Shown: positions 39,722 through 64,000 of the stretch, one piece after another
Position numbering within the stretch: position 1 is the stretch's first letter
Layout: each line of letters begins with the position of its first letter
Source of the DNA: an uncultured Candidatus Peregrinibacteria bacterium
GTDB lineage: Bacteria > Patescibacteriota > Gracilibacteria > Peribacterales > Peribacteraceae
DNA length: 64,000 nt
Reading direction: 5' to 3'
NCBI GenBank assembly: GCA_903825315.1
Contig: CAIKAD010000004.1
Span: forward strand, 6,298 to 70,297
Position numbers and translations under genes: made by a program
Notes under the pieces: model-generated
Database searches by the model: none
Told to the model about the DNA's origin: nothing
What the model saw: only the letters and a program-made list of their open reading frames with translations

Positions 39722-39834
39722 GTCTCTATTCTACCAGAAAACCGATTCTGCGGCAATAACGTAGGATATTGTCAAAAGCGTCAATAGAAGTGAAAGATGA
39801 TGTGGCGGGCCTAGAGGGACTTGAACCAATCAAT

Positions 39835-40431: not shown

Positions 40432-40591
40432 ATGTACCAGTCGCTTCGCTTCGGTGCATGGCAAGCGATCGGTAAAAGAACGAATCTGTTCCGTGGGCAG
40501 TATACAGCTTTCCAAACAGGAAAAGAACCCCTCCAACACTTGTAAGAAACTCCCTATTCATCCGGCAGAACATACGTCTTCCCCATTGTGT

Positions 40592-41344: not shown

Positions 41345-41447
41345 GGAGCACATGGTACCCATCACGCTCACGGCGCTGCAAGTTGCTGCACTGGACGGAA
41401 GGCCGAGCGAGGCGCGGCTTACCATTCCTTGCCTACTCTCTTGCGCT

Positions 41448-44400
41448 TCAGAACAGATCGTTCTTGGTATGGTCACGGTCCTGCAAAGATGTTCTCGCGT
41501 GCTGTGCCGAGGGATCGGCGCCGTGCTGCCGGTGCACGTGCGGCAGGATGGGGCGCGGACGCTTACCACCCTTTCCCCGGCGGTTGCGGTGCCAGAGGAG
41601 AATGCCGAGCGCCGCATTGCTTCCCACGAGGATGGTGATGATGACCCAGGCGATGGTTGGGATGCCTGTGGTGAGCGGCGCACGGTTCCTGTCTTCCACC
41701 ATCACGCGGATCATCGGCAGCACTACGTCCGTGCGGCGCTCGGCTTCTACCGTGAGGCCAGCCGGCGGCTCGATGACGATCATGCGCTTTTCCACGCGGT
41801 TGTTGCCCACGTGGATTTCCACCTGGTGCGTGCCGGTTTCCACGTCGTGGAAGACGGCGACGCCGTCTGCGTTCGTGGTGGTCACCTTGGGCGTGGAGAA
41901 GAGGATGACGGTGGTCTTCTGGTACGGTGAGCCGAAGGTATCGGACACACTGAGGCTGAAGGAAGCGAGCATGATCTTGCCATCCTTCTGGAACATGGAC
42001 GTGCGGTACTGGCGCTGCTCCGGTGTGCGGGCGATCTGTTGCGGCCGGACGATGGAGGTGAGGCCCGTTACCGCGTTCTGGAGTGCATCATTGCCACCGG
42101 TGACGGCGTCCGCCAGGCGGTCGGCGACGGCTACGGACACCTGCGCGATGCCCTGTGCGGCATGATCCGTCTCCAGCCCCAGCTGCGTGCCGACGAATGC
42201 GACGGCATTGTGGAGGGCGCCTAACGTGCCGGATCCGAGGGAGGCAAACTGCCGGCCGGAGGTGCCCAGTGCCTGTGCCATGTACTGCGCCACCGCTCCC
42301 GTATTGAGCGCGAGTTCCGTTGCAATGCCCTGCATGCCCTTCCCCAGCGTTCCCATGACGCCGGGCAGGTCGCCGAGCTGCGTGAACGCTACCTGTGCGC
42401 TCTCCATTGTGTTGTTGAACCGGCGGGCCAGGGCGCGCATTTCCGGCTTCCACCGACTCTGGATCAGGAGGGCGTACTGCTTTGTCTCGGTTCCCATATC
42501 GGTGAAGGAGTCGCGGACCATGGTCAGGGCGAGCGGGCGGAGCATGCCCCATACGCCTTGCATGGACTGCGGCGCCAGCTCCTCGATGCCACCGAACGCG
42601 ATACCGCTAAGGCGCTGCTTGAGGACTTCCTTGAGCGTTTCGGTGCGGTACGGTTGCAACGCCATGCGGATGGCACGTTGCTGCGCCCTTTCCTCCTCTC
42701 TCCTCTGGCGGATGAGCTCGAGCAGCTGACTGCGCTCCGGTCCGGTACCGTTGTTGAGCGAGCCGTCGTCGATCACCGGCTGCGTTACCTCCTGCCCCGG
42801 TGTTGCCGGCCGCACGATGATGGGCTGCGCTCCTGTTCCCGTCATCGGAATTTCCGTAAGTGTTCCGCCCGAGAGCGAGGCACCGGTGCCGGTCACGATC
42901 GGTTCACCGTTCTTGCCGGTGGCCCTGTGGTAGCCGAAGTTTTCTATGGTGAGCTGGCCGCCAGCTGTGATGGTCACGGAACGGCTGTTGGTGGTGGAGG
43001 AGAAGAAGGCGGACGGCGGTTCCACGATGACCAGGTAGCTTGATTGCGAGGGGGGCAGGTTCGTGAAGGCGAAGGCGCCCGTGGACGTGGTGAGGGCCCG
43101 CAGGGAGAGCGTGCCGCCCGTAGAGGAAGTGCCGCTGAGCGTGACGACGGCCCCCGCAAAGATCTGGTTCTCGGTGCTCTCCTGCTGCCCGTTGACATTG
43201 GGATCGAAGAACACCGTGCCGCGTATGGTGCTCCCGCGGACGAAGCCGGCGTTGAAGGTTTCCGTGGAACCCGTGCCTATGACGACAGCTGTCCTGGACG
43301 TGGCAGAGGTGCGGATCCAGTTGGACGGCACCGTGGCGGTATTGACGGCAATGGCGTAACCGGCGCTATTGCTGCGGACGATGCCGCTAAACGCGTAGGA
43401 ACCGTCGCTGCCTGTCGTGCGGCTCAAGGCGAGAGAGGCGCCAGTCGTCGTGTTGCCGGACAGATTGAGGGTTACACCCTGGACACCGGATGTCTCTGTA
43501 CCGTCCTTGGTCCCGTTGCCATTCACATCGTTCCACACCGTTCCGAGAATGGTTCCCGTGCCCGTTCCGCCGAAACTCCAACCCACGTTGTTCCCGCTGT
43601 CGATGGCGCTGCCTGCAAGTTGGATGCTTATGCTCGATCCGCTGATATTGTTGCTGTCCTTTACATCCACGTAGCGGACATTGTTTGTGCCTGTCGGGTT
43701 GATCTTCCACTGCGTACCGGTGGATGTGGAGCGCAGGCTGAGGAGCCCTCCTTCCACGCCCATGAGCGTGAGGGTGCCCGTGACGCTCTGCGTGACGCCC
43801 GCGGCGAACGTAAGGGTATCGGCGGACGTTGCCATCCTCGTAAAGTTGTTGAAGGTGGTGGCTCCGCGGATTGTCTGGTTGCTTCCCAGGAACTGCACCG
43901 TGGAGGTGTCTGCGGTAAAGGTTCCGTTGTTCGTGTAATCTCCCGAGAGTGCGAAGGTGGCGTTGCCGGCGGTCACCGTCCCGAAGTTGCTGAAGGTACC
44001 GCCCACGCTGATGCGCGATGCGCGGCCGTCGCTGCCGGTGGCAATGAGGGTGCCGCTGTTGATGAATGTCCCGGTTACGGCGATGTTGTAGCCATTGGTG
44101 ATGAGGACGTCGCCTGTCTTTATCGTGAGGTTATCTGCAAGGATGCTGCTTCCGAGCGTGATGGTGTCCGGACTTTCGCCGATCTGCACGTCTCCGAGGT
44201 TGGTGCCTACCTCGTCCTTAATTTCCAGGTCGCCGTTGAGGATGAGCCTGGCGCCGGAGGAGGCAGCCTTTTGGAAGGTGGCACCGGAGGCGATGTGCAG
44301 GTTGCCGGAGACGTACAGGGGAGCTGCCTGTTGGTAGAAGGAGCCACTCAGTGTGAAGTTCTGGACGCGCACGCTCCCCGTTCCGGCGTAGAAGGAGCCG

Positions 44401-47400
44401 CTGCGCATCATGAACGGACCATTGGCGCGCATGCCGCCCATTCCGTTGTAGAACGTACCGCCGCTCAGCGTAAAGGCCTGGGCGGCCACGCTTCCCGTAC
44501 CGGCGTGGAAGATTCCTCCGTTCACCGTAAGCGGGCCGCTGGCGGTTACGGTTCCTCCGTAGTTGTAGAAGGAGCCTCCGTTCATCTGGAGCGCGCCCTG
44601 TGTGCGCACGCCGCCTATGCCGCAGCGGAACGTGCTGCCGCTCAGCGTGAAGCTCTGTGCAACGACGCTCCCCGTGCCGGCGTAGAACGTGCCTCCGTTC
44701 ATGCTCATAGGCCCGCTGGCGGTCACGTTTCCGCCGCCGCCGTAGAACGTGCCCCAATTCATGGAGACCGCGCCCTGTGTTTGCATGCCGCCCATTCCGT
44801 TGTAGAACGTGCCGCCACTCAGGGTAAAGGTCTGGGTGCTCAGGCTGCCAGCGCCGGCGTAGAACGTGCCGCCGCTCATGGCGAGCGGGCCCTTAATGCT
44901 TACACTCCCTGTGCCGGCATAGAATGCGGCTGACCGGTCGATGAGCGATACGCCGCTGGAGGCCAGTGTGAACCCGTTGAGCAGGTAATCGCCGCGGACA
45001 TTCACCTCAGGCGATACCGTGTCGCCGTCTGCCTGGAACGAGTCCCAGACAAGGAATCTCTGTCCGGGCTTGAGCTGGAGGAAGTTCGGGCGGCCGTAGT
45101 TTGTGCTGGTACCCATAATGAAGGACCCGCTCATGTACGTGCCGTTCTGGCCCGCGGCCGTGGCGAGATAGGAGCTGCGCATCGGTGTATCGAACTTGGC
45201 CGTGCGCGTGATGAGGGTGTCCCGGTAAAGGTCGATACCCGTCATGGAGGAGCCGGAGGCGACGAGGACCGTGACGGCGTTCATTTCCCACCAGTCGATG
45301 TTGATGGAGATAATCTCACCGCCGCTCAGGTCCGCGCCGGAGAGCGTGTAGGCGCCCGTTACGGGGTTGGAGTGGGTAAAGGCAATCATGTCGCCACCGT
45401 CGCTGCGCCAGGTGACCGGCAAACCATAGGTCTGGTTGGTGTTGTAGGGATCGATTCTCTGGAGCGGCGTCTTTCCGTCGGCTTGGTAGAGCGTGCCGGA
45501 GATGGTGAGGATCTGCGGCTTGAAGCGCCAGTTGAAGGTGTTGCTGTTCATGTTCAGTTTGCATCCCGGTGCGAGACAGACGAGCATCTGTCCTCCGCGC
45601 GCGTCGCTGTCGTACACGTCGAGGTAGGAGAGGTCCTGTTCGGCGCCCGGCAGCAGGCGGAGGATGGGCGGCTTCGGCTTGCCGTAGGTGTAGTTGTACA
45701 TCCCGAAGCCGCGCAGCTGTAACCGTATCGGTTCCGTCAGCAGGGTGGGATTCCATCCGGGGTTAATGGCCCCCAGGGTGAGGCTGTCCCGCACGCTGAT
45801 CACAGCATCCCGGTTGAAGTAGAGCGTCTGCCAGTTGGCAGTAGCCACTTTCCGGAGTGTTCCGAACGTTGTGGAGCCGCTCATCGTGAGGTACGGGCTT
45901 GTGATATTTACGATGCTGAGCGTGCCCGCCGTAAACGTACCGGCATTGTGCCAGTTTCCCTGCGATGTTCCGCCCAAAGTGATAGTGCTGCCCGTGGACG
46001 TTGTGAATGTACCGTGGTTGCTGACGGCCGTAACGTTGAGGTTGCCGGTCGGCGCAAAGCTCGCGCCCTGCCAAATGTAGAGTTCCTTGCCGTCGCTCAG
46101 TGTCATCGAGGTATCGGTCGCGGTCGTCAGGACATCCGTAACGTCCCCATCGGAGGTGGCGCTGTTGCGTGCAAGTGCCAGGTCGGCGCTTGTCACGGTG
46201 ACCCCGGACCCGCTCCGCACAATGAGGCGGTTCTGGTAGAGGTTCATGTCCATGAGGCTTCCTGTGAGGCCGCGCGCCACGAGGACCGCGTCGGTGCCGC
46301 CGCCAACGTTTGTCGCGAGGTTGTCATCCACGTACATCGTCATTACCGTACCGCCTGTCATGGCGGGAGTGGGCAGCGAGAAGTTGCCACCTGCGTCGGT
46401 GGAGCCCGAGGACACCACGGGGCCGCCGTTGATGGTGAGGGAGATCTTCTTGCCGCTGGTGGTGATAATCCAGTGCCCGTCGTCGCCGTAGAGTGTTCCC
46501 GCTATGGAACCGGGGGAGAGCACGCGGTGATTGAAGGACGACGAGTTGCTTGCCGCGTACGTCGCGTTCCCCGCGTAGGCGCCCGTAATGGCGTGAGTGC
46601 CCAGGGAGAGATTATCCGTGACTATGGAACCAGACCCGTGCCCGAGGACGATGGTGCCGATGGCGCCGTCCAGGCCGCTCTGCACGGCGACATTACCCGT
46701 GATATTCGCCCCCAGGATACCCATGAGAATGTTCTCCGGCCCGAAGTCCGACCCCGGCCCGCCCAGGGATACGGAGCCCGAGAGCCCCGAATCATTCTGC
46801 GGCTTGAGGAGGAACGGCCAGGCGTAGGCGCCTGATCCCATCGCCACCAACTGGGTCTTGCCGGCGTCCTTGTAGGCGCGAACGATGAAGGAAGGCTGCG
46901 TCATGATGTGGTTGCCGACGAGTCTGTTCTCCTGACGCGGCGTGTCCTGATTGCCGATGTAGTAGTTTTCCGGAATGCCGTTCCACGCGACTGTGCCCCA
47001 CAGCCGTGAGCTGTTGACGGGGAAGAGGGCGATGGTACCAGACCCGTTACGGCTCCCCATGGCCACGATGTTCCCTACACCTCCAACCGAGCTCCGGAAC
47101 AGCCGAACGGTCTCGTTATTCGGGGCGACGTTACTTACCGACCAGTATAATACGCCCTGGTTGGTATTCATGCCCGTAGCACCGCTCATGGACCATTGGG
47201 TGAAACGGTTGTTGGTATCCCCCTGCTCCTCCCATGGCGACGCGTAGCTATCTGTCGAGGATGTTCCGTAGTAATCCCAGTACAGCACGCCGTGGTTGGT
47301 ATTGCTCTCACTCGCTCCCCTAAAGTTCCAGTTTGAGGCGAATCCTTCCTGATCACCCGCCTCCGTCCACGGCTGGGAGAGGCTGGTCGTAGCCGTGATG

Positions 47401-56400: not shown

Positions 56401-59400
56401 CTCACCCAGGAACGACCGATCTTGAGGACCGTCGAAGGGTTGCCCGTCCCGTACGTCCAAGCGATAGGAGTCTTTGTGGTACCGTCCAGCGTGAAGGTGC
56501 TGTTGCTGCCGTTGTACACCCAGGTGACGTAGTGCCACGTGCCGTCGCGGAGGTCGTTACCGGGGGAGACGAACGTTTCCGCCCAGTTTCCTGCGCCGTT
56601 TGAAACGTTAATGCGCAGGTTCCCGGAACTGAGGAAGAGCTGGTAACCTGCGTGGGCACTGTCCTGCGGCGCCCCATCGTCCAGAATGGCGCTGTACGTG
56701 CCGGTATCAGCCGCTGCCTTGAGCCAGAGGGAAACGGAGAAGTTTCCGGTGCCGAAGCTCATGGCACTGGATGTTTCCATGTCCTGGCTCGTCCCGCTGA
56801 AGACGGCGGCTCCGTCCATTCGCCCGGCTCCTGCAGTGGCGCCGTTGACGGAGAGCGTGTTGCCGTTGGCTGTGGCATCAGCACCTGAGAGGTTGGTCCC
56901 GTCCCTCATGTGCCAAACACCCCTATAGTTCGCATCCCACACATCCCGTGCCATCTGTCCGTCCCTGGCCCTGGCATTGCCGTAGTACATCGTGATCTCC
57001 GTATCCTGCGCCGTCGCGATCTTGGGCACCTTGACCCAGAAGTTTCCGGAACCCGAGCCTGCGCGGGTGTGGTAGTCCTCACGCTCGTACGGCAGCATCC
57101 AACCGGTGGACGTTGCGAAGCGGATGTCCGCGCCCGAGCTCTGAGCATTGTTGTCCAGGGATGCATCGGCTGTCATCGTGACGAGGAGCGGGAAGTTACT
57201 GAGGTCGGCATCCACGTTCGTATGGTCGATGCTGATGCGGCGGCTGTAGTTCCAGGCATTCACGTTAAAGTTCCAGTTCCTGTTATGGCCGCGGTCTTCG
57301 CTCTCCAGATCCGTTACGTTGATCATCCGTCCGCCGGACGCATCGGAGTGTGCAACCTTCACTCCCGTAGCATCAGCCGTCCCCGTCACGTTGAGCGTCC
57401 AGGAACCCGTAGCAGAGAGATCCAGAAGATCATCCGTCGTTCCAGCCAAGCTCAGGTTCCCGCCCACGTTGATCACTGATCCCGGCAAACCTCTCGGTTC
57501 AACCTGGCCAGACGTTCCAAATACCATATTCCCAATACTCGTAATCCTCTTTCCGTTAAAGTCGACGGTCCCGCTCATTACGTTCATGGAGTTGAGCGTG
57601 CCCGTGCCCGTAAAGGTCACCTTTCCATGCGTCTTGTTAATGGCCACCCCTTCCACGCTCCGGCCGAGGAGGTTGATCTGCTGGTTCGTGGAGCCGGACA
57701 TGGTGATAGTGCCGGTGCCCTTGGTGTACACGAAGGTACCGGCGTTCTGCTGCAGCGTCAGATTGCCCGTGATGACGAAGTTGGCGTTGTTTGCGTTGTT
57801 GATCGTAATAGTGGTAGCGGCATTGTTGTTGCGGAAGAGAACGTTGCCATTGATGACGTACGTGCCCGCGGAAGGCGTCCACGTACCTCCTGCGCCGTCG
57901 GTATCCGCTACAATGAACGAACCCACGTTATACGTCGCCGGCGCAAGGATTGCCGCGGCGTTGGGACGGTCGAAGTCCAGCGTGCCTACGCTCACCGTGC
58001 CGCCGTTGGCGATGGAAGTGAGTCCCTTGCCCGCCTGCGGTCCATAGAAGCCCAACATACCGGCGCCCGTGAGCACGCCGCTGCGGCCCACCGTTACCGT
58101 ACAGTTGCCTTCCGACCAGTAGAGCTTTCCGGATGCGATGGAGAACGTTCCGTTGATCGTGAGGTTGTTGCTGATGCCGGCGCTGGTTGTGACGCTTGTA
58201 GCGATGACCGAGGCGCCCGTCTGTACGGTGAGGTTGTAGAGCTCTCCGGTGTTGTCCCCCTTCTTGTCCGTAAGCGTTACGCCATTGCCCACCATCACCA
58301 CCGTGCTGGTGCCTTTGTTCCAGGTGGTCACGGAACCAAAGTTCAAGTCGCCGCCGATGGTCATAATGCCGCCCGCGAGCACCTTGCCCCTCGTGAGCGT
58401 CACGCTGCCTTCCACAGTCAGGTTGCGGCCACTTGTGCTCAGGTCCAGTGTGCCGGAGCCGCTGTCGACAAGCGCACCGCTCAGAGACAGGCTGTTCGTC
58501 ACCGGGCGGAGCGTGCCGGAACCCGCATGTGTCACGTTGTAGAAGAGGCTGCCGGCATCCGTTCCGCCCGTGTTGAGGGTCTGGATGCCCGAAGCCCTGT
58601 CGAAGATTACGGTACTGTTGTTGTGGTTAAAGGTGCCGCCTGTCTTATTCCAATCACCAGCCACGTTGAAGGTTCCCGTCGGGGCGATAAAGGAACCGCC
58701 TGCGAGCGTTACGTTGCCGTTCATGTCCATAATGCCGGTGCCGCCCGAGAACGCGCCGCCCATAATGGTGAGGCCGCTCGCAGAGAGGCCGAAGTCGTTC
58801 ATGTTGAAGGTGCCGGCCGTGGCCTTGAGTGTGAGACCGGAGCCCATGCGGATGCCATTCTCGGTGACGGTGACCGTGGAGGAGCCGGAATGCGTGAGCT
58901 TGTAGAAGACGGTTGCGCCCGTGCCGCTGTTGACGGTCTGCGGCGCGCTGCCGTTAAGGACCACCGTGGACGTCTGCGGCCGGATCGTGGCGTACGTGCC
59001 GTCGAGGTTCCCTCCAACGAGGATGGTGCCGGAGCCGAGCTCGAGATAGCCGTGCGTGCCCCCCGCCCCGGTGTTCACATAGACGTTGCCGCCGATGCGG
59101 TGCGTTCCGTTCTTAAAGATGAGCTTGCCTTGGTAGCCGTTGGGGTACCCCGCATTTGTTGTGCCTAGAGAAATGCTATTCGCGACGGTGAGGTTGTATC
59201 CATTGGTATCCAGTACTGCACTGGCGGACTCGCTCGTGTTGTTGCCCCCGGCGTATATCGAGAGCGACAGGATGTTCCAATCACCGGTCATCCGAACGAG
59301 CATCGCGCTGTAATTGAGGATAAAGCTAACGTTGGGGAGGTGAAGCGCCTTCTGCGATCGCGTTGCGGTGTTGTAGATGCGCACGGTGCTGGTGGCAATG

Positions 59401-62400: not shown

Positions 62401-64000
62401 ATGGTTACGCCGTATGTCTGGTTATTGAGTGTACCGGAGATGAGTGTGAGGTCGGCAACGATGAGCGGATCCTCCAGGGTCCACACGCCGCCCGTGCCGC
62501 TAAATTTGACGTTGCCGAAGGTAGCGCCGCCGCTCCGGATGGTCTTGCCGGCGCTCGTGGCGGCAAAGGTGCCTGTGCCCGTGGACGTGACCGCGCCGCC
62601 CGTTGCATCCCAGTTGCCGTTGACCGTGTAGGCGTTGGCGCCCGCGTTAAAGGTGCCGTTGATGTCATAGTCATCCGCAGCCACCTGTCCGCCCGGAGCG
62701 AAGGTGTCGCCCGTCCAGACAAAGAGTTCCTTGGTCGAAGCAACAGTCAGATTTCCACCCGCCACTGTGTAGAGGGCAGAGATGTCACTGTCGCCATTGT
62801 TGGCGGCCACGGCGAGCTTGGCATTGGTTACAGCAGCAGAGCCGGATTCGCTGCGGACGATGAGGCGGTTCTGGTAGAGGTCGATGCCCTCCATGGCAGA
62901 GCCAGAGGCGATGACTACCGTTACCGCCTTCTCCGTTTCGCCGTCCACGAAGAGCGTGATGATGGAGCCGCCGGTCATGGCGATGCCGTTAAAGGCGAAG
63001 GCGCCGTTGGCGTTGGTCGAGATGGTCCGGATGGTCGGCCCGCCGTTTCTGCTCACGCCGATCGCCTTGTTTGCCATGGTCGTGGAGCCCTCATCGCTGT
63101 AGAGCGTGCCGGAGATGCCGTGGCCGAAGTACCAGTGGTTGTTGTTGCCACCGTCCACGTTGGTGCCGCCCGTGGCGTCGATCTGGATACCCGCGGAGGC
63201 GTCCGAATTCTTGACTGTGACGTACTGAGCCGTGGCGGTGCTGCCGTTGACCGTGAGCGTCCAGGCGCCGGTCGCGCTAAGGTTGAGGAGGTCACTCTCT
63301 TCGCCCATCAGGCTCAGATTCCCCCCGACGTTGATCACCGATCCCGGCAAGCCTTTGGGCTCAACCTGTCCCGAAATTCCAAATACCATATTCCCAATAC
63401 TCGTAATCCTCTTTCCGTTAAAGTCCACTGTACCGGACATCACGTTAAGGCTGTTCAAGGTGCCCGTGCCCGTGAAGACGACCTTGCCATGTGTCTTGTT
63501 TATCGCAATGCCTTCCACGCTCTGGCCGAAGAAGTTGATCTGCTGGTCGGTAGAGCCGGACATGGTGATGGTGCCGGTGCCCTTGGACCAGGAGATGGGA
63601 CGAGTGCTATCTCCATTGAACGTAACGTTCCCGTGGAATTCCAGATTCGGATTGTTGCTGCCGCTGATGATGAGCGCGCCTAGAGTGTTGTAGTTATAGA
63701 ATTCAAGCGCCGATGCAAAGATGGTGGTACCGGCCGGCCAGGTAAACGCCCCGTTTGTGCCCTCAATTCTGAATAGGGAGGTGGGAGCGTAGGTGCCGGT
63801 GGGCAAAGCCACAGACCTATAGAGACTGATCACGGCCGGTGTGATGGTGGTCGGATTGGAGAGGGAAAGCGCTGTGTTCCACTTGAGCGTGCCGTTGCCT
63901 GTAACAGTACCGTTCGCTCCCTGCGTGAATCCGCCGTCACACCAGAGTGTTCTATTTGTAATGGTGAGCGCGCCATTCACCGTGAGCGGACCGTAGAGAT
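41448..64000 (-). CDS. giant modular surface/adhesin-like protein, >7,516 aa, 5'-partial (continues beyond the window)
   Basis: Single open frame from the window edge to TGA at 41448-41450. The track starts at GTG 63980, but the upstream in-frame codons (LYGPLT) are open and continue the repeat pattern. Gly/Thr/Ser/Asn/Val-rich beta-helix-like repeats plus the domains listed below. C-terminal TM anchor. Confidence 0.9.
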   Translation of the reverse strand, partial: LYGPLTVNGALTITNRTLWCDGGFTQGANGTVTGNGTLKWNTALSLSNPTTITPAVISLYRSVALPTGTYAPTSLFRIEGTNGAFTWPAGTTIFASALEFYNYNTLGALIISGSNNPNLEFHGNVTFNGDSTRPISWSKGTGTITMSGSTDQQINFFGQSVEGIAINKTHGKVVFTGTGTLNSLNVMSGTVDFNGKRITSIGNMVFGISGQVEPKGLPGSVINVGGNLSLMGEESDLLNLSATGAWTLTVNGSTATAQYVTVKNSDASAGIQIDATGGTNVDGGNNNHWYFGHGISGTLYSDEGSTTMANKAIGVSRNGGPTIRTISTNANGAFAFNGIAMTGGSIITLFVDGETEKAVTVVIASGSAMEGIDLYQNRLIVRSESGSAAVTNAKLAVAANNGDSDISALYTVAGGNLTVASTKELFVWTGDTFAPGGQVAADDYDINGTFNAGANAYTVNGNWDATGGAVTSTGTGTFAATSAGKTIRSGGATFGNVKFSGTGGVWTLEDPLIVADLTLISGTLNNQTYGVTINGNYFSATTMTANQGTGTWTFAGAGKTIKAESGTPNSIRNVSIPGSYTCNDLRLGSANSGSLTVGGSLTISSSKGLYVVGSSNNFVSITGTLTGAGNLGIIPKTNVTLGALNTTISEIFMSSWSTHTTVTLTGDWRTSGRLRVGYYASATSSVTLDLNGYNLNATNLYLASGVATDIGHIKFRTGTHRITNDFTVRYNTASTADLGSSTILVGGSWDTRHVHVTPGTSTVILNKTSGTGSINSGTGGSVFYNLTQSGAGNWTISGSNLQIGNNLTLQSGAGTFDNAKYGKNITVPGNVTMNNTKTSLGNGTWTVGGNFDWSAASTVSTNASTIVLTGSGKTFRAPNTKANLNALTVATGAAITIPSGAGGHSVSGLFTLNGKLTQNSVSNLMLLGGMRQGVNGTMDGSGPLNPAAGTLFFSRSEAVAPAIMNLDTQYGIILPAGRYASPSQFRFYGSSTANQTFTWQAGTYTFLAPVTFLQSGTGDKTFTISAANNPTLVFLSDVAITQTTGTIAWSKGAGTLVFSGSTAQNVNLLGKSVDAVTVNKTHNGVTFTGTGTMTSLNVASGTVNFNGKKITTVADMTLGTTAQVNTTGLPGSIITVGGNLSLAGTVGTPLNLTATGTWTLSVAGTAGAEYVNVAGSDARGGSAIVARASTDNGNNHNWVFGKTITGKLYSDEGSTPLSNRKVSVSVNGRAVSGSGVTNAAGVFQIHSWANMTGGSVVTLFADTNGGDAAVLVTLGSGSSMTGVSLYKDRLIVRSDSGSTAITNVNLDIADNVNDSDIAAIFSTSNGNLTLASGKELHVWTGDSFVPGGNVTADDYHVLGTMAAQNYTVNGNFTVAANSFTATGNGTFASTSAGKTVTATGGTLGNVTFNGNGGAWTFQTNLTMSSATLVAGAVTDNRKTVRVDGDISVGNTSGILTSTGIWEMSANGNISNPYFWNTTFRTLQIDAGVTATKTDEVNTQKLIMGANALIQGNSNIRITYPLVDDFLDIGTGASIATSTVRIYNTATRSQKALHLPNVSFILNYSAMLVRMTGDWNILSLSIYAGGNNTSESASAVLDTNGYNLTVANSISLGTTNAGYPNGYQGKLIFKNGTHRIGGNVYVNTGAGGTHGYLELGSGTILVGGNLDGTYATIRPQTSTVVLNGSAPQTVNSGTGATVFYKLTHSGSSTVTVTENGIRMGSGLTLKATAGTFNMNDFGLSASGLTIMGGAFSGGTGIMDMNGNVTLAGGSFIAPTGTFNVAGDWNKTGGTFNHNNSTVIFDRASGIQTLNTGGTDAGSLFYNVTHAGSGTLRPVTNSLSLSGALVDSGSGTLDLSTSGRNLTVEGSVTLTRGKVLAGGIMTIGGDLNFGSVTTWNKGTSTVVMVGNGVTLTDKKGDNTGELYNLTVQTGASVIATSVTTSAGISNNLTINGTFSIASGKLYWSEGNCTVTVGRSGVLTGAGMLGFYGPQAGKGLTSIANGGTVSVGTLDFDRPNAAAILAPATYNVGSFIVADTDGAGGTWTPSAGTYVINGNVLFRNNNAATTITINNANNANFVITGNLTLQQNAGTFVYTKGTGTITMSGSTNQQINLLGRSVEGVAINKTHGKVTFTGTGTLNSMNVMSGTVDFNGKRITSIGNMVFGTSGQVEPRGLPGSVINVGGNLSLAGTTDDLLDLSATGSWTLNVTGTADATGVKVAHSDASGGRMINVTDLESEDRGHNRNWNFNVNAWNYSRRISIDHTNVDADLSNFPLLVTMTADASLDNNAQSSGADIRFATSTGWMLPYEREDYHTRAGSGSGNFWVKVPKIATAQDTEITMYYGNARARDGQMARDVWDANYRGVWHMRDGTNLSGADATANGNTLSVNGATAGAGRMDGAAVFSGTSQDMETSSAMSFGTGNFSVSLWLKAAADTGTYSAILDDGAPQDSAHAGYQLFLSSGNLRINVSNGAGNWAETFVSPGNDLRDGTWHYVTWVYNGSNSTFTLDGTTKTPIAWTYGTGNPSTVLKIGRSWVSDFKGSMDEVRIAGTARSPAWTKFEYWNMRGSGSTIGNPNRQTIAGKFTSDEGTTALAGKKVSLSLNGGRVVGSGTTDVNGNYVITGIPAMTGGTIVTVYSDNNAQQAVTVTLGNGGSMTGISLYQDRLIVRSEFGNQQVTNGLLASATFSGNSDSDIAALYSVAGGNLTVAAGKELHVWTGDSFVPGGNVTVTDLHVLGTMNVQTNVYTIAGNFTAAQNAFTSTGTGYFVATSAGKTITATGSTFGYVQFNGVGGGWTLQTNISMSKNLTLLNGTLDASSKTMSVGGSWDTSAAGGTFVSGTSTVNMTGNGTLKTRTGNNFHNLIITTPGQTITLLTTVKVMNVATVGSTSGNRVTVSPSGSSYLYLSGANPIPLVLNGTGNADPGYSFTTNIFYNNTANVTVAGGTYGVGFYCMPQGTYTCTLGGAVSVPGNILQIYSATTNATATLDTAGYAVTAGQIFVGSTTQYGTLIANNSAITLSGQVNVKPANVAGSNILDLGSSTWNVKGDWKNEDMVLPGTSTVVMNKTSGTQYVVQTAAASGSFYNLTQSGAATVTVSGSNLRTNNNLTMKSTAGIFSLNGKNLTASGLTLNGGTFTGGASNVDVNNVTIAGGTLSAPTGTFTVAGSWNKTSGTLTHNNGTVSFDGASGIQTLNAGGTDAGSTFYNIKQTGAATLRPATNDLKTASGITLLAGAGTFDNATYDRNITVLGNVTMESSRVDLGDGTWTVSGNFDWSGTPGDVLRGTSTLVMTGVGKILKAPYSSTKTRDLYNLTIATGASVTVPSSVSYHNQYGLVTINGALTNNATLTWSCYNGFTQGISGSVAGTGKLFWRSAAPVTLSNASAIVQNTLYAFRTLSLPPGTYAPTNEFILYNDAPGNATLTWQAGTYTFTSLFRALQFYQSTGTWTISGANNPNFVFLKNVTIQQDTGTTVWTKGTGTITMSGSTTQLVDLAGKSVEAVTVNKTAGTVQFTGTGTLTSLNVQNGTVDFNGKKITTVGNVTLGTTAQVNPVGLPGTTLTVGGNLSLTGEQNDLLNLSATGAWTLTVNGASATAQYVTVAWSDASNGREIDAAGGTNVDGGHNQHWNFGHDLSGTVYSDKGSTPLGNQTVRVAVNGTDYVRTAETNATTGVWSIANVPYAAGSVLTVYLEDETADAVAVTLGGTGNLSGLHLYQNRLIVRSDSGAYVLTNANLATAAVAAEDDIANIYSVTSGNVTVGGSKELFVWTGDTYAPGGNVTTGHMDIRGTLNAGSGLIAVSGTWQNKGTFNAQTSTVDLNGTSQTMTGSTTFWNLRKKTVAADTLTFYTGTTQTVGNRLSMSGAVANLLSLRSSATGLQWMIDAQGTRAIGNLDVQDSWNTNAAKMMCATGCVNRGNNRNWHFGATSTLLVSSLNPSTFGSGVTLTATVTPAMATGTVIYKDGDVTIGTITLSHASGSMSIATLGGGSHNLTAIYNGNSEYNGSTSNTVNQTVNKANVAVSLTSNLNPSTFSSGVTLTANVTPATATGTFTFKDGVVTIGTVTVSHGSGSMTISTLGAGTHSLTAVYSGNANYNTRTSNTVNQIVNKKDTAVSLTSNLNPSTFSSGVTLTANVTPATATGTFTFKDGVVTIGTVTVSHGSGSMTISTLGAGTHSLTAVYSGNQNYNGETSNTVNQTVNRKNTTTNLSSSQNPSTYSGSVTLTASVLPVTATGSFTFKDGNVTIGTATVSHGSGSMVTTQLGGGSHSLTVVYSGNQNYNGSTSNTVNQTVNKATSTVSLASSQNPSTFSNSITLTGTVSPWTTTGSLTFTDGNVVIGTATLGHASGSISISTLAAGSHNLTVTYSGNANYNGHTSDTVVQTVNKANVAVNLISSLNPSTFGSGVTFTATVIPATATGTVTFKDGNVTIGTGTLAGGVASMNISTLIVGTHNITATYNGNQNYNNQTSDILPQVVGIYVTSVTFTSSLNPSTFNDTVTLRAVINDPVATGTVTFKDGNVTLQTVTLSHASGSYVISTLAAGNHNLTAIYSGDANHTTAQASLLQTVNKANTTTILSSSQNPSTFSNSITLTASVTPSTATGTATFKDGNVTIGTATLSRGSGTLSISTLAAGSHNLSVIYSGNQNYNGSTSAAVNQTVNHANVTVTLTSSRNPSALDDNVIFTATVAPVTATGTVTFKDGNANLTVVTLGHGSGSMNTTTLAVGTHAITAVYSGNQNYNGTGSNLVSQVVRMYVSGRLFSDEGLTGLNGRKVSLSLDGGAVTASGTTDVNGAFRIRAPQDMTDASVLTLFVSGQAEKAVTVVLGSGSSMTGISLYQNRLIVRSENGAAVTNANLDTADGSNDNDIAAIYGTAGGNLTVVAGKELHVWTGDSFVPGGQVTTADLHVLGTMNVQTNVYTIYGNFTSAENAFTATGTGTFAATAAGKTITATGGTLGKVVFNGAGTWTFQTNLTMSSATLLAGNVTDNRKTVRVDGNISVANAANLLTSTGIWDMSANGSVGNPYPVSPYNSINALRIDAGVTATRTSTVFTKSVSLGAGAVIQGTSILVLAFPSVDDFIDLAAGANITGNRTNIYIYNGTTRSQKALTVSDEVRIIYGKANATLRMTGNWSTGSLWVYGDTGTTTPMILDTNGYNLTVNGDLRLGYSTVSTNDAYQGKVVLNGGTHRITGNLLVDGQYTHGTLELGSGTVLLGGNFDGRNATVLPQTSKVILNKTAGLQTITSGTGGNVFFNLTQSGAATRNVTGYALSIGSGFTVNAGTFNMNGSGVTVGKNFTNGAGATFQAGSGMLTVNSNFSNSGTFQNGHGTVTLNGMNQSVSGNTTFWDLRKQMTGTGTLTFVAGSTQTVQNRWSMSGSSLGRLFLRSSIPGYQWYINPQGTRVIGWLDVKDSNNTNATAISATNTNSVNSGNNTNWVFALATTTSIASSLQNSSYGQGILFTVTVTPAAATGSVTIASGSLALGTVTLGHGSGSLATNALGIGNNQIKASYDGNTQYLASEGTTLQTVTKATTATALTSSPNPSVLSGTVTITATTSLSQPWTEAGDQEGFASNWNFRGASESNTNHGVLYWDYYGTSSTDSYASPWEEQGDTNNRFTQWSMSGATGMNTNQGVLYWSVSNVAPNNETVRLFRSSVGGVGNIVAMGSRNGSGTIALFPVNSSRLWGTVAWNGIPENYYIGNQDTPRQENRLVGNHIMTQPSFIVRAYKDAGKTQLVAMGSGAYAWPFLLKPQNDSGLSGSVSLGGPGSDFGPENILMGILGANITGNVAVQSGLDGAIGTIVLGHGSGSIVTDNLSLGTHAITGAYAGNATYAASNSSSFNHRVLSPGSIAGTLYGDDGHWIITTSGKKISLTINGGPVVSSGSTDAGGNFSLPTPAMTGGTVMTMYVDDNLATNVGGGTDAVLVARGLTGSLMDMNLYQNRLIVRSGSGVTVTSADLALARNSATSDGDVTDVLTTATDTSMTLSDGKELYIWQGASFAPTGNLNVTAVSNHGTFTTSTGSTITLGGTSQGNWHNAGTFTAGTLSIVNITSPYLTMSGSTTFGTLRKVATANWQTLYFNRDAVISVRDSLTLGAINPGWNPTLLTEPIRLQLRGFGMYNYTYGKPKPPILRLLPGAEQDLSYLDVYDSDARGGQMLVCLAPGCKLNMNSNTFNWRFKPQILTISGTLYQADGKTPLQRIDPYNTNQTYGLPVTWRSDGGDMIAFTHSNPVTGAYTLSGADLSGGEIISINIDWWEMNAVTVLVASGSSMTGIDLYRDTLITRTAKFDTPMRSSYLATAAGQNGTYMSGSFIMGTSTNYGRPNFLQLKPGQRFLVWDSFQADGDTVSPEVNVRGDYLLNGFTLASSGVSLIDRSAAFYAGTGSVSIKGPLAMSGGTFYAGAGSLSTQTFTLSGGTFYNGMGGMQTQGAVSMNWGTFYGGGGNVTASGPMSMNGGTFYAGTGSVVAQSFTLSGSTFRCGIGGVRTQGALQMNGGSFYNYGGTVTASGPLTVNGGIFHAGTGSVAAQAFTLSGGTFYNGMGGMRANGPFMMRSGSFYAGTGSVRVQNFTLSGSFYQQAAPLYVSGNLHIASGATFQKAASSGARLILNGDLEIKDEVGTNLGDVQIGESPDTITLGSSILADNLTIKTGDVLITNGYNIAVTGTFINSGTLIATGSDGRASRISVGGTFSNFGTVTAGNATFALSGDYTNNGTFTADTSTVQFLGSNQTIRGATTFNNFTRMATSADTLTFAAGVTQSVTGTLTLMGVEGGLLSLRSTSTGTQWKINPTGTNNVRYVDVKDSNNISGSSISIQLAGSAIDSGNNVGWSFGGTGTGTILGTVWNDVNGNGTKDGTETSGVQGVTLNLSGNTTTGASLALSRTTGSDGSYAFSGIVRSNSAGYAIAVNTATVPSNWIRTSATSRTAVVIGTGSTETFNAGFVRGSTIRGTVFFDPNVNGQQESTENQIFAGAVVTLSGTSSTGGTLSLRALTTSTGAFAFTNLPPSQSSYLVIVEPPSAFFSSTTNSRSVTITAGGQLTIENFGYHRATGKNGEPIVTGTGASLSGGTLTEIPMTGTGAQPIIVRPATPGQEVTQPVIDDGSLNNGTGPERSQLLELIRQRREEERAQQRAIRMALQPYRTETLKEVLKQRLSGIAFGGIEELAPQSMQGVWGMLRPLALTMVRDSFTDMGTETKQYALLIQSRWKPEMRALARRFNNTMESAQVAFTQLGDLPGVMGTLGKGMQGIATELALNTGAVAQYMAQALGTSGRQFASLGSGTLGALHNAVAFVGTQLGLETDHAAQGIAQVSVAVADRLADAVTGGNDALQNAVTGLTSIVRPQQIARTPEQRQYRTSMFQKDGKIMLASFSLSVSDTFGSPYQKTTVILFSTPKVTTTNADGVAVFHDVETGTHQVEIHVGNNRVEKRMIVIEPPAGLTVEAERRTDVVLPMIRVMVEDRNRAPLTTGIPTIAWVIITILVGSNAALGILLWHRNRRGKGGKRPRPILPHVHRQHGADPSAQHARTSLQDRDHTKNDLF
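41592..41663 (-). other. C-terminal TM helix of the giant protein, followed by a basic tail
   Basis: IPTIAWVIITILVGSNAALGILLW then HRNRRGKGGKRPRP. Preceded by APLTTG (41664-41678). Confidence 0.8.
42930..43553 (-). other. two SdrD-B-like (Cna-B/CarboxypepD_reg-type) domains in the giant protein
   Basis: GTVWNDVNGNGTKDGTE...GSDGSYAFSG and GTVFFDPNVNGQQES...TSTGAFAFTNLPP match the G.V..D.N.NG..D ... G.Y.F..L pattern. Confidence 0.7.
44335..44935 (-). repeat. ten tandem 19-20-aa units FY.G.G....Q.F(T/S)L(S/N)GG(T/S) in the giant protein
   Basis: ...FYAGAGSLSTQTFTLSGGT|FYNGMGGMQTQGAVSMNWGT|FYGGGGNVTASGPMSMNGGT|FYAGTGSVVAQSFTLSGST|..., with a 3-unit super-period. Confidence 0.8.
46710..47384 (-). 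other. ~225-aa unknown domain nested inside an Ig-like repeat of the giant protein
   Basis: The Ig repeat is split: ...LSGTVTITATTS [insert LSQPWTEAGDQ ... ENILMGILGA] NITGNVAVQSGLDGAIGTIVLGHGSGS.... The insert is Trp/Tyr-rich with a repeated N.GVLYW. Confidence 0.65.
49779..52253 (-). repeat. array of nine 90-92-aa Ig-like (Big_3_5-type) repeats in the giant protein
   Basis: Unit: ..LTSSLNPSTFG..VTLTATVTPATATGTVTFKDGNVTIGT.TLSHGSGS..ISTLA.GSH.LTA.YSGN.NYN.STSN.V.QTVNKA. Nine consecutive copies (825 aa). Confidence 0.85.
51432..51983 (-). repeat. near-identical tandem pair of 276-nt Ig units (repeats 2 and 3)
   Basis: 71 consecutive identical residues (AVSLTSNLNPSTFSS...THSLTAVYSGN). About 9 nucleotide differences over about 213 nt, all synonymous. 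Confidence 0.85.
56316..57254 (-). other. DUF2341-like + LamG/concanavalin-A-like lectin module in the giant protein
   Basis: WNYSRRISIDHTNVDADLSNFPLLV...DIRF...LPYERE...FWVKVP...ITMYYGN is the DUF2341 pattern. It is followed by GVWHM..... ... FSVSLWLK...GTWHYVTWVYNGS..TFTLDG...MDEVRI, the Laminin_G_3 pattern. Confidence 0.7.

What the first reader, a model, noticed from the sequence alone, without database searches (positions are those of the whole stretch)
41448..64000. One uninterrupted ORF of more than 7,516 codons fills the last 22.5 kb and is still open at the window edge
The minus-strand frame runs from position 64000 to TGA at 41448. There is no in-frame stop upstream of the first GTG at 63980, and the upstream codons LYGPLT continue the repeat pattern. 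The product is Gly/Thr/Ser/Asn/Val-rich and strings together extracellular-type modules: beta-helix-like repeats, 9+2 Ig-like domains, DUF2341+LamG, two SdrD-B-like domains and a CarboxypepD_reg-like domain. It ends in a single TM helix. Bacterial genes of this size are rare and mostly uncharacterised. The N-terminus, and therefore the secretion signal and true length, lies outside the window. It is followed on the same strand by a lipoprotein gene and a strong terminator.
Basis: partly seen in the sequence, partly recalled or inferred. Interest (0 to 1): 0.85.

Follow-up and report, generated by a model that had tools for sequence, protein, structure and literature searches.

The report
Giant surface-fibre gene of a Peribacteria bacterium
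The 22.5-kb open frame is real: it is the 3' half of a gene of at least 47 kb that probably encodes a membrane-anchored surface fibre longer than the cell, in a tiny-genome groundwater bacterium (Peribacteria, Candidate Phyla Radiation).

Summary
The minus strand is stop-free for 7,516 codons, from the window edge to TGA at 41448-41450. Codon usage matches the neighbouring genes, and chance is excluded (P about 1e-99).

The host is a Peribacteria (CPR) bacterium. The same gene, 100% identical over the 6-10 kb of its 3' end that could be fetched (four contigs), lies on ten contigs from separate samples. It always runs off a contig end. Called lengths reach 15,502, 15,519 and 15,669 aa, so the gene is at least 47 kb, about 3.4% of a 1.4-Mb genome.

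About 60% of the protein has no Pfam, NCBIfam or PDB sequence match. That part is a repeated cassette: an all-beta run (probably a solenoid), a conserved cap motif, and a transthyretin-like sandwich. The cassette defines a family of at least 1,278 cluster representatives, mostly from CPR where taxon names exist.

The C-terminus is a helical stalk, a beta-sandwich, one TM helix and a conserved basic cytoplasmic tail. In two orthologues the gene pairs with the same lipoprotein gene.

Best reading: a C-terminally anchored, multivalent surface fibre or adhesin. This is inferred, not shown. I rate it a new variant of a known kind, of moderate-to-high interest.

The parts
41448..64000 (-). 3' part (7,516 codons plus TGA) of a giant gene that continues beyond the window edge; at least 15,669 codons on other contigs
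   Evidence: stop-free frame, codon usage; called product lengths on ten contigs
63357..63998 (-). all-beta repetitive run A1 (aa 1-214), probably a beta-solenoid; diverged copies at aa 906-1134, 1946-2180 and 3325-3555
   Evidence: self-comparison; AF2 pLDDT 77-92, strands only; about 20-residue hydrophobic periodicity
63126..63356 (-). cap motif 1 (aa 215-291, '...L.L.S..G.W.L.V.G....YV.V.DS.A......N.G.N.NW.F'); eight copies, ending at aa 291, 1200, 2244, 3620, 3912, 5420, 6160 and 6809
   Evidence: regex and alignment; the part best conserved in homologues (query 220-560); low AF2 confidence
62619..63125 (-). module B1 (aa 292-460): a transthyretin/CnaB-like beta-sandwich followed by the 'LYQNRLIVRSESG...ELFVWTGDTFAPGG' segment; seven copies starting at aa 295, 1203, 2575, 3624, 4741, 5831 and 6165
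   Evidence: alignment A1; HMM hits; AF2 pLDDT 85-97; Foldseek local matches to CnaB, SpaA, carboxypeptidase-D transthyretin-like and SdrD folds
56343..57134 (-). DUF2341 (aa 2289-2351) plus Laminin_G_3 / concanavalin-like lectin domain (aa 2402-2552)
   Evidence: Pfam 44 and 63.9 bits, above the cut-offs; six to seven copies of the same unit in homologue P0042
49785..52277 (-). nine tandem Big_3_5 Ig-like domains (aa 3908-4738; 276-nt period, 61-78% DNA identity)
   Evidence: Pfam 388.9 bits; repeat families D1/D2
47379..47729 (-). tenth Big_3_5 Ig-like domain (aa 5424-5540)
   Evidence: Pfam tile 8
46629..47378 (-). 250-aa insert (aa 5541-5790) with no match among the 163 family proteins fetched, nor in Pfam or PDB sequences; contains an internal duplication 'W.F.GA..SNTN.GVLYW'
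   Evidence: sequence
46521..46628 (-). C-terminal remnant of an eleventh Ig-like domain (aa 5791-5826)
   Evidence: weak Big_3_5 match, tile 9
44319..44981 (-). 3.7 copies of a 59-aa (177-nt) repeat 'GGTFYAGTGSV...', i.e. three coils of about 20 residues each
   Evidence: repeat family D7; autocorrelation peaks at 20, 39 and 59
42924..43556 (-). two SdrD_B-like domains (aa 6815-7025); the second also scores as CarboxypepD_reg / SpaA prealbumin-like
   Evidence: Pfam 72-74 bits
42012..42728 (-). Ala/Gly/Gln-rich predicted helical stalk (aa 7091-7329)
   Evidence: AF2 long helices, low confidence; an equivalent region in P0042 and P0101
41691..42011 (-). membrane-proximal transthyretin-like beta-sandwich (aa 7330-7436), conserved in P0042, P0101, P0045, P0084 and loci L030-L036
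   Evidence: AF2 pLDDT 75-89; Foldseek E 1.6e-4 to 2e-3 against transthyretin-like domains
41586..41660 (-). highest-scoring hydrophobic segment, read as the single transmembrane helix (aa 7447-7471)
   Evidence: Kyte-Doolittle maximum 2.16; AF2 helix
41451..41585 (-). basic, His-rich cytoplasmic tail (aa 7472-7516; 11 K+R against 4 D+E) with the motif 'P..H.H..HGADPS..H...SL.D[KR]D' conserved in two orthologues
40922..41425 (-). lipoprotein gene (called product 167 aa; the likely start is the ATG at 41344, 'MRNLHRTRF...LFLTAC'), 23 nt downstream of the giant gene; homologues follow the orthologous giant genes in L030 and L032
40876..40899 (-). intrinsic-terminator-like hairpin (10 bp stem, then TTTATG) that ends the two-gene unit

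Best explanation
The ORF is the C-terminal half of one very large gene in a Peribacteria (Candidate Phyla Radiation) bacterium. The gene is at least 15,669 codons, about 47 kb, for a product of at least 1.6 MDa.

The product is most likely exported through Sec by an N-terminal signal that lies outside the window. It is then held in the cytoplasmic membrane by its single C-terminal TM helix. The basic, conserved 45-residue tail would sit in the cytoplasm and everything else outside.

From the membrane outward the order is:
1. a transthyretin-like sandwich
2. a helical stalk that could cross the wall or S-layer
3. two SdrD-B-like domains
4. a long chain of rigid all-beta (probably solenoid) rods, each closed by a conserved cap and joined by transthyretin-like sandwiches, with binding-type modules set at intervals (a DUF2341/LamG lectin unit, eleven Ig-like domains, and a 250-aa orphan insert)

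Fully extended, the window-encoded half alone would span roughly 150-200 nm, which is the diameter of a CPR cell. The likely role is a multivalent tether or adhesin that reaches and holds partner or host cells or surfaces. The co-transcribed lipoprotein would act as an assembly or anchoring partner.

Shown: the ORF, its coding character, its recurrence on other contigs, the domains, the TM-plus-tail arrangement, the host lineage, the family, and the lipoprotein pairing.

Inferred: export, topology, solenoid geometry, physical length, and adhesion.
For: - Coding and continuity.
- Recurrence: ten contigs carry the gene; the four fetched and compared are 100% identical to the window over 6-10 kb of its 3' end. 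The product is cut at a contig end in each case that could be checked, at lengths up to 15,669 aa.
- Host: the 16 named relatives among the best 120 CTP synthase hits are Peribacteraceae, Peribacteria, Peregrinibacteria or 'Patescibacteria group' (90% identity to the top one). There are 15 kb of synteny with the Peribacteraceae genome GCA_041661065.1, and GC is 58%, as in Ca. Peribacter (PMC4736985).
- Extracellular modules: Big_3_5, LamG/DUF2341 and SdrD_B score above the Pfam cut-offs.
- Anchor: one TM helix with a positive-inside tail. The sandwich-plus-TM module is conserved in four other family proteins and ten metagenome loci. The tail motif is conserved in the orthologues L030 and L032.
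- Homologues P0020 and P0021 replace the TM with four SLH cell-wall-binding domains at the same end. This argues for anchoring at the C-terminus with the N-terminus distal.
- Complete homologues start with Sec-type signals (P0026, P0028).
- The cassette recurs up to 12 times per protein, with other binding domains inserted: repeats I read by eye as NHL-like in P0026 and RCC1-like in P0022, and LamG- and FN3-like arrays in P0028 and P0042.
- AF2 gives an all-beta model with mean pLDDT 79.5, and there is a hydrophobic periodicity of about 20 residues.
- The lipoprotein gene is conserved immediately downstream in L030 and L032, although the wider context differs.
- Literature: large surface proteins of Peribacter and Vampirococcus are inferred to mediate attachment (PMC4736985, PMC8080830). 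Peregrinibacteria is named first among six bacterial phyla enriched in proteins over 5,000 aa (PMC11573180).
Against: - There is no expression, localisation or binding data.
- The N-terminal half or more was not seen, so the signal peptide and any catalytic or toxin modules are unknown.
- LamG, Ig and SdrD-B folds are generic and name no ligand.
- Foldseek found no significant solenoid relative (best E 0.015, probability 0.30), and the cap region was modelled with pLDDT below 50.
- The closely related genome GCA_041661065.1 has no such gene at the syntenic site. The gene is therefore accessory, not core to the lifestyle.
- Lengths above 8,212 aa rest on gene-call tables from three assemblies whose DNA could not be read.
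Confidence: 0.6

Rival explanations
1. It is a structural envelope component, not an adhesin. The fibres would form a coat, spacer or S-layer-associated brush that protects the cell, sets the distance to neighbours or traps nutrients.
For: Homologues P0020 and P0021 carry SLH domains typical of S-layer and wall-associated proteins. No domain with a defined ligand was found. Vampirococcus shows a thick fibrous coat attributed to giant proteins (PMC8080830). N-x-S/T sequons are enriched (191, z = 4.5), which would fit a glycosylated coat.
Against: A coat protein would be expected in every member of the lineage. The sister genome lacks the gene at the syntenic site. The mixture of lectin-like, Ig-like and orphan modules, and their shuffling between orthologues, looks more like ligand-driven diversification.
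Confidence: 0.2
2. It is a contact-dependent attack or feeding device. The fibre would deliver wall-degrading or toxin modules, located in the unseen N-terminal half, to prey cells, as proposed for the giant proteins of Omnitrophota.
For: More than 8,000 residues were not seen. Giant genes of predatory Omnitrophota are linked to cell-wall degradation (bioRxiv 10.1101/2023.11.21.568195). The relatives Absconditabacteria are predators (PMC8080830).
Against: The 7,516 residues in the window contain no hydrolase, peptidase or toxin domain in Pfam, NCBIfam or PHROGs. The N-terminal head of homologue P0028 shows no enzymatic Pfam domain.
Confidence: 0.12
3. It is an assembly artefact (a chimera or misjoined repeats), or a decaying pseudogene read as one frame.
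For: All contigs break inside the gene, at two hot spots about 8.15-8.21k and 15.5-15.7k aa from the stop. This shows that difficult repeats lie upstream of the window.
Against: The sequence is identical in the four contigs compared. In-window repeats are at most 78% identical. A 22.5-kb frame without a stop, with native codon usage, cannot be a pseudogene or a random join. Three assemblies agree within 170 aa on a length above 15,500 aa.
Confidence: 0.04

Closest known systems
Uncharacterised giant proteins of Peribacteria, Peregrinibacteria and other CPR that share the solenoid-cap-sandwich cassette (e.g. P0020 7,732 aa, P0021 7,400 aa, P0042 6,030 aa; loci L008, L030, L032)
   Same: They are true homologues. 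They have the same module B (up to 12 copies), the same cap motif and the same all-beta runs. P0042, P0101, P0045, P0084, L030 and L032 share the C-terminal sandwich-plus-TM anchor. L030 and L032 also share the tail motif and the lipoprotein partner.
   Different: None is characterised or named, and the cassette has no Pfam or NCBIfam model. This gene is at least twice as long as any of them. Module order and inserted binding domains differ. Some use SLH domains instead of a TM helix.
Ebh / extracellular-matrix-binding protein homologue of Staphylococcus aureus (about 10,000 aa)
   Same: It works alike: a megadalton rod-like surface protein of a bacterium without an outer membrane. By my own knowledge it is held by a C-terminal membrane-spanning segment with a charged tail. 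PMC11573180 cites it as the model giant surface protein that binds fibronectin.
   Different: It is not homologous. By my own knowledge Ebh is built of helical FIVAR/GA repeats; Pfam reports no family of that kind here. The protein here is all-beta.
Large extracellular proteins of Ca. Peribacter riflensis (PMC4736985)
   Same: Same lineage, small genome (1.25 Mb, 58.5% GC), and predicted extracellular and attachment role. Strain variation is concentrated in such genes.
   Different: The described proteins are 1,219-3,861 aa, and many are very Cys-rich (about 7%). This protein is at least 15,669 aa and has 11 Cys in 7,516 residues.
Giant membrane proteins of Vampirococcus lugosii (Absconditabacteria; PMC8080830)
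   Same: A CPR bacterium with a 1.3-Mb genome. Its longest proteins are membrane-associated, carry adhesion-type domains, and are held responsible for a fibrous surface and host attachment.
   Different: The longest is 4,163 aa. The domain sets differ (WD40, PKD, DUF11, integrin). Homology was not tested here.
Giant genes of Omnitrophota (up to 85,804 aa; bioRxiv 10.1101/2023.11.21.568195)
   Same: Extreme gene length in small-celled, host-dependent bacteria. The genes are fragmented in assemblies, and the products are repetitive beta-rich surface proteins.
   Different: The phylum and envelope differ. Those proteins are linked to cell-wall degradation, and no such domain was seen here. That survey's text never mentions Peregrinibacteria or Patescibacteria and names CPR only as predators.
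RTX / BIg-repeat giant adhesins of Gram-negative bacteria (LapA, SiiE, MpIBP)
   Same: Long arrays of Ig-like domains act as an extender, with ligand-binding modules along or at the end of the fibre (my own knowledge).
   Different: There are no RTX nonapeptides and no C-terminal type I secretion signal. The C-terminus is a TM helix. Anchoring polarity is the reverse.

Membership tests
CPR solenoid-cap-sandwich cassette family (defined here, unnamed) | Repeated module B ('ISGTLYSDEG...LYQNRLIVRSESG...ELxVWTGDTFAPGG') | tested here: met
   Seven copies in the window protein. The HMM built from them hits 129 of 164 sequences tested, with up to 12 copies per protein.
CPR solenoid-cap-sandwich cassette family (defined here, unnamed) | Cap motif ending 'N.G.N.NW.F' that closes each all-beta run | tested here: met
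   Eight copies. The stretch cap plus B (query residues 220-560) is the best-matching stretch in most of the 150 best hits.
CPR solenoid-cap-sandwich cassette family (defined here, unnamed) | C-terminal envelope anchor (sandwich plus TM, or SLH) | tested here: met
   Sandwich plus TM, shared with P0042, P0101, P0045, P0084 and L030-L036. The SLH variant is seen in P0020.
Bacterial Ig-like domain group 3 (Pfam PF16640 Big_3_5) | Score above the Pfam gathering threshold | tested here: met
   388.9 bits against a 35.5-bit cut-off, eight stretches in one tile; nine tandem copies plus two more in all.
DUF2341 plus Laminin_G_3 unit (PF10102, PF13385) | Both domains above threshold and adjacent | tested here: met
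   44 bits (cut-off 23.4) and 63.9 bits (cut-off 27.6).
Sortase-anchored LPXTG surface proteins (MSCRAMM type) | LPXTG-type motif directly before the C-terminal hydrophobic segment and basic tail | tested here: not met
   The hydrophobic segment and basic tail are present. No LPXTG lies within 60 residues of the TM, and the five aligned C-termini share no such motif. The only LPXTG-like string (IPMTG) is 400 residues upstream.
RTX / type I-secreted giant adhesins | C-terminal GGxGxDxUx repeats and a secretion signal | tested here: not met
   No nonapeptide match in 7,516 residues and no HemolysinCabind hit. The C-terminus is a TM helix.
Autotransporter / two-partner-secretion beta-helical adhesins | C-terminal beta-barrel translocator, or an N-terminal TPS domain with a TpsB partner | tested here: not met
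   There is no autotransporter barrel domain at the C-terminus. The N-terminus cannot be tested. Foldseek matches to Ag43 are weak (probability 0.08). Some distant homologues carry PF12951 repeats.
SLH-anchored S-layer / wall proteins | SLH domains (PF00395) | tested here: not met
   There are none in the window protein. Four are present in the tail of homologue P0020.
Ebh-like giant staphylococcal proteins | FIVAR/GA helical repeats and a YSIRK signal | tested here: not met
   Pfam reports no such repeat families on any tile. The signal peptide cannot be tested because the N-terminus is outside the window.
Omnitrophota giant proteins | Sequence homology, or shared peptidoglycan-degrading modules | not tested
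No hydrolase domain was found in the window part.

The most novel reading that the evidence does not exclude
This gene of at least 47 kb, together with its conserved lipoprotein partner and conserved cytoplasmic tail, encodes a dedicated host-capture organelle of Peribacteria. The organelle would be a fibre longer than the cell. Its modular lectin, Ig and orphan inserts would set host range. Its tail would couple binding outside to a response inside. Its unseen distal half may carry the effector modules for feeding on the host.
Probability: 0.15. Interest if true: 0.85.

Novelty: new variant of a known kind. Interest (0 to 1): 0.62.

Why it matters
CPR bacteria make up a large share of bacterial diversity. 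They are thought to live attached to other cells, yet the molecules that make the contact are almost unknown outside Saccharibacteria.

Here a bacterium with a genome of about 1.3-1.4 Mb spends at least 3.4% of it on one gene. That is about four times longer than any CPR protein described in the papers I could read. The repeating cassette of this gene defines a large family, mostly from CPR where taxa are named, that no domain database covers.

The work gives a concrete candidate for the attachment apparatus and a profile to find its relatives. It also gives testable features: the C-terminal anchor, the conserved cytoplasmic tail and the lipoprotein partner. Finally, it shows that short-read assemblies systematically truncate the gene at two repeat zones, so its prevalence is underestimated.

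Tried and rejected
Searches that failed or found nothing:
- A whole-protein and a 3,900-aa query to the search for homologous proteins failed on the length limit and on time-out. That database returned only proteins under 1,500 aa and not the gene itself.
- The C-terminal 487 aa found nothing there.
- Scans for the window's first 400 aa, meant to extend the gene upstream, found nothing in GTDB species genomes or in JGI metagenomes. The N-terminus could therefore not be reached.
- DNA for the three contigs with lengths above 15,500 aa is not held.
- Alignments A1, A2 and A5 were too diverse for locus scans.
- NCBIfam gave no hit on any tile.
- PDB sequence searches found nothing, either with the cassette profile or with the last 1,977 aa.
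- PHROGs matched only the Ig array.
- Sample accession numbers were not found in the literature.

Readings considered and rejected:
- Alternative genetic code with UGA as Gly, as in the neighbouring phyla Gracilibacteria and Absconditabacteria: rejected.
- Sortase anchoring: no LPXTG.
- Type I secretion via the HlyD/ABC genes at 2.7-5.3 kb: those genes lie 36 kb away, are of the ABC-2 type, and the protein has no RTX signal.
- The Cys-rich Peribacter protein class: only 0.15% Cys here.
- A conserved position in the lineage: the sister genome lacks the gene at this site.
Full report
**1.

Translating the minus strand from 63998 down to 41451 gives 7,516 sense codons, followed by TGA at 41448-41450. 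No other frame of the window stays open for more than 1,504 codons. The ORF listing reports the same frame from the first GTG at 63980, and the six codons upstream of that GTG are also open.

From base composition, the chance of 7,516 codons without a stop is about 1e-99. The other five frames of the same 22.5 kb contain 19 to 513 stops. GC3 is 0.795, against 0.69-0.84 in UvrC, CTP synthase, H+-PPase and the other neighbours. Relative synonymous codon usage correlates with those genes at r = 0.91, but at -0.04 and 0.10 in the two shifted frames.

The organism uses the standard code. TGA terminates 13 of 25 window genes and never occurs in frame in conserved ones. A TAG lies four codons after the giant gene's TGA.

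**2.

Pfam on overlapping 1,000-aa tiles finds:
- DUF2341 (44 bits) and Laminin_G_3 (63.9 bits) at about aa 2289-2552
- Big_3_5 at 388.9 bits, with nine tandem copies (276-nt period, window 49785-52277) and two further copies near aa 5424-5826
- two SdrD_B domains (74 bits) at aa 6815-7025
- CarboxypepD_reg, SpaA and EMC7-type sandwiches

The strongest hydrophobic segment is aa 7447-7471; one lesser peak (1.8 against 2.16) lies at aa 5039. It is followed by a 45-residue tail with 11 K+R against 4 D+E. A lipoprotein gene (lipobox LTAC) starts 23 nt after the stop, and a 10-bp hairpin with a T-run at 40899-40876 closes the unit.

About 60% of the protein has no Pfam hit. There is no NCBIfam hit at all and no PDB sequence relative.

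**3. Internal anatomy**

Self-comparison shows diverged super-repeats, 30-80% identical at the protein level and at most 78% identical over 300 nt of DNA. Three recurring elements make a cassette:
- all-beta runs of 200-650 residues
- a cap of about 75 residues ending 'N.G.N.NW.F', in eight copies
- module B of about 170 residues, 'ISGTLYSDEG...LYQNRLIVRSESG...ELFVWTGDTFAPGG', in seven copies

An AlphaFold model of aa 1-620, made with 14 aligned copies and homologues, has mean pLDDT 79.5 and is essentially all strands. The cap was not modelled with confidence.

Foldseek finds no significant match for the whole model. Local matches of 85-120 columns, with probability near 1, tie the first half of module B to transthyretin, CnaB, SpaA and SdrD-B folds. 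Beta-solenoid adhesins (4wa0, Ag43, ice-binding proteins) appear only weakly.

Hydrophobic residues recur about every 19-20 positions. The 59-aa repeats at aa 6340-6560 show peaks at 20, 39 and 59, as expected for coils of about 20 residues. The solenoid geometry is therefore an inference. If it is right, about 4,000 solenoid residues, eleven Ig domains and the sandwiches add up to roughly 150-200 nm for the window-encoded part.

**4. The C-terminus**

A model of the last 330 residues gives long helices (low confidence), then a sandwich at aa 7330-7436 (pLDDT 75-89), then the TM helix and a disordered tail. The sandwich matches transthyretin-like domains at E 1.6e-4 to 2e-3.

The same sandwich-plus-TM module ends four other family proteins, P0042, P0101, P0045 and P0084, and is found at ten metagenome loci. 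No LPXTG-type motif precedes the TM in any of them, and there are no RTX nonapeptides.

**5. Host**

The window's CTP synthase is 90% identical to that of a Candidatus Peribacteraceae MAG. The 16 named relatives among the best 120 hits are Peribacteraceae, Peribacteria, Peribacterales, Peregrinibacteria or 'Patescibacteria group'.

The single-contig genome GCA_041661065.1 (1,377,411 nt) is syntenic with window 24,994-39,520 at 67-80% DNA identity. The window's 58% GC equals that of Ca. Peribacter riflensis (58.5%, 1.25 Mb; PMC4736985).

**6. True size and recurrence**

Exact-sequence look-ups of the neighbouring PyrK-like and lipoprotein genes find the locus on contigs from several ENA and Logan samples. 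The four contigs whose DNA could be fetched and compared are 100% identical to the window over 6-10 kb of the giant gene's 3' end.

With a 40-nt flank the look-up lists ten contigs separately. The giant gene's called product is 1,985, 2,621, 5,178, 8,146, 8,175, 8,206, 8,212, 15,502, 15,519 and 15,669 aa.

Where coordinates are given, the gene fills the contig to its end. For example, 4,582 + 3 x 15,519 = 51,139 on a 51,143-nt contig. The gene is therefore at least 15,669 codons: 47 kb, a product of about 1.6 MDa, and about 3.4% of a 1.38-Mb genome.

The assemblies stop in two narrow zones, at about 8.15-8.21k and 15.5-15.7k aa from the stop. These zones point to near-identical repeats upstream of the window. 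That is where repeat collapse should be checked. I could not read the DNA of the three long contigs.

**7. Family**

A full HMMER scan of 1.84 billion cluster representatives with aa 1-1100 gives 1,278 hits at E <= 1e-3 and 236 at E <= 1e-30. Many are thousands of residues long (P0020 7,732 aa, P0021 7,400 aa, P0023 7,038 aa, P0042 6,030 aa). The best-conserved stretch is cap plus module B. An HMM of module B hits 129 of 164 sequences tested, with up to 12 copies each.

Named relatives come from Peribacteria, Peregrinibacteria, Parcubacteria, Saccharibacteria and 'Patescibacteria', with a few bins labelled otherwise. In Peregrinibacteria CG10_49_10 the frame is open across a whole 20.5-kb locus, so that gene is at least 6,832 aa.

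Homologues show what the missing parts may look like. P0026 and P0028 start with Sec-type signals. P0020, P0021, P0028 and P0042 share an N-terminal head of 1,100-1,300 aa without Pfam matches. P0020 ends in four SLH domains instead of a TM helix (186 bits), and by eye P0021 ends the same way. In both cases the family is fixed to the envelope at its C-terminus.

The cassette is combined with different binding modules: LamG units in P0042, repeats I read by eye as NHL-like in P0026 and RCC1-like in P0022, and LamG- and FN3-like arrays in P0028. This pattern fits a display scaffold.

**8. Orthologues and the gene pair**

Two metagenome loci carry orthologues: L030 (a 228-kb contig) and L032 (record named Hain-H43-02um). 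Their last 800 residues or so are colinear with ours at 34-35% identity, and module B copies lie upstream.

Their cytoplasmic tails share 'P..H.H..HGADPS..H...SL.D[KR]D' with ours. A homologous lipoprotein gene (56-60% identity) follows immediately, although the wider gene context differs. The giant gene and the lipoprotein gene therefore travel together. The tail is under constraint, which suggests a cytoplasmic partner.

**9. Genomic setting**

Synteny with the sister genome ends at tRNA-Glu(ttc), which is inverted between the two. Beyond it the sister has caspase-like, TIR and restriction genes instead of the giant gene. The gene is therefore accessory and sits at a variable site.

**10. 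Interpretation**

The best-supported reading is a Sec-exported, C-terminally membrane-anchored, very long modular surface fibre that acts as a multivalent tether or adhesin.

The reading rests on five points:
- the exclusively extracellular-type domains
- the TM helix with a positive-inside tail
- the SLH-anchored paralogues
- the signal peptides of complete homologues
- what is inferred for large surface proteins in Peribacter and Vampirococcus (PMC4736985, PMC8080830)

It is not demonstrated. A coat or spacer role, or an attack device with effectors in the unseen half, remain possible. An artefact is very unlikely for the window.

**11. Comparison and novelty**

Giant repetitive surface proteins are a known kind. 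Peregrinibacteria is named first among six bacterial phyla statistically enriched in proteins over 5,000 aa, and the proteins of five of those phyla, Peregrinibacteria included, received no COG assignment (PMC11573180).

The CPR examples described in the papers I read reach 3,861 aa (Peribacter) and 4,163 aa (Vampirococcus). The Omnitrophota giant-gene survey never mentions Peregrinibacteria or Patescibacteria and names CPR only as predators.

Functionally, the nearest analogue is staphylococcal Ebh, which by my own knowledge is also anchored by a C-terminal TM segment. It is helical and unrelated. Sortase-, RTX- and autotransporter-type families fail their defining tests.

I rate the finding as a new variant of a known kind: an uncatalogued cassette family, an unusual anchor with a conserved tail and lipoprotein partner, and an exceptional size for a genome of about 1.3-1.4 Mb.

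Noticed in passing
window 39314-40864 (tRNA-Glu 40357-40431, GIY-YIG gene 39835-40128); L029 15937-16011: Synteny with the Peribacteraceae genome GCA_041661065.1 ends exactly at tRNA-Glu(ttc), which is inverted between the two genomes. Our side then carries a small GIY-YIG nuclease gene, a Transgly_assoc gene, the lipoprotein and the giant gene. The sister carries Peptidase_C14, TIR and restriction genes. It looks like a variable or integration hot spot.
   Followed up: partly
outside the window, about 24.5 kb and about 46.5-47 kb upstream of the stop at 41448: Ten assemblies break inside the gene in two narrow zones (8,146-8,212 aa and 15,502-15,669 aa from the C-terminus). This implies near-identical repeats there.
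   Followed up: partly
window about 36,600-36,960 (23S_rRNA_IVP-family gene): Two contigs (scaffold_1190 and PeX-8-ya) end at the same place on the other side, inside or next to the 23S rRNA intervening-sequence-protein gene, and a third (tgywSXfz) probably does, judging by its length. This suggests a repeat or a strain-variable point.
   Followed up: no
window 18831-22857 (+): Three adjacent genes: 7TM_transglut (101.6 bits), sugar-transfer-associated ATP-grasp (196.7 bits) and a MATCAP-like carboxypeptidase (139.6 bits). By my own recollection this is a recurrent peptide-modification trio.
   Followed up: no
window 15305-18134 (-): Three consecutive genes (285, 356 and 291 aa) with no Pfam match. 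They encode charged helical proteins with Pro/Ala/Thr-rich ends. The region has the strongest AT skew of the window (-0.30 at 16-18 kb).
   Followed up: no
window 32504-34681 (-): A 725-aa ORF with no Pfam match. No DNA match to this stretch was found at the syntenic position of the sister genome, which has GTP cyclohydrolase II and PpnN-like genes there instead.
   Followed up: no
window 46629-47378 (-), aa 5541-5790 of the giant protein: A 250-aa insert between Ig-like domains with no match among the 163 family proteins fetched, nor in Pfam or PDB sequences. It contains an internal duplication (W.F.GA..SNTN.GVLYW). It is a candidate specificity module.
   Followed up: partly
window 41451-63998 (-): There are 191 N-x-S/T sequons (2.5 per 100 aa; z = 4.5 against shuffles) and only 11 Cys. 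The gene may encode a heavily glycosylated protein. It is unlike the Cys-rich large proteins reported for Ca. Peribacter.
   Followed up: partly
window 41451-63998 (+ strand, frame 0): The antisense frame in register has only 19 stops in 7,516 codons. This is probably a by-product of the strong GC3 and codon bias, not a second gene.
   Followed up: no
window 1094-2209 (-) and 2698-5320 (+): A Fic/DOC adenylyltransferase-type gene. Next to it lies an ABC ATPase plus ABC-2 permease plus HlyD-like set, unrelated to the giant gene by distance and type.
   Followed up: no
proteins P0026, P0022, P0028: The same cassette is combined with other inserted modules: repeats that look NHL-like (P0026) and RCC1-like (P0022) by eye, and LamG- and FN3-like arrays (P0028). 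This suggests a general display scaffold used across CPR.
   Followed up: partly
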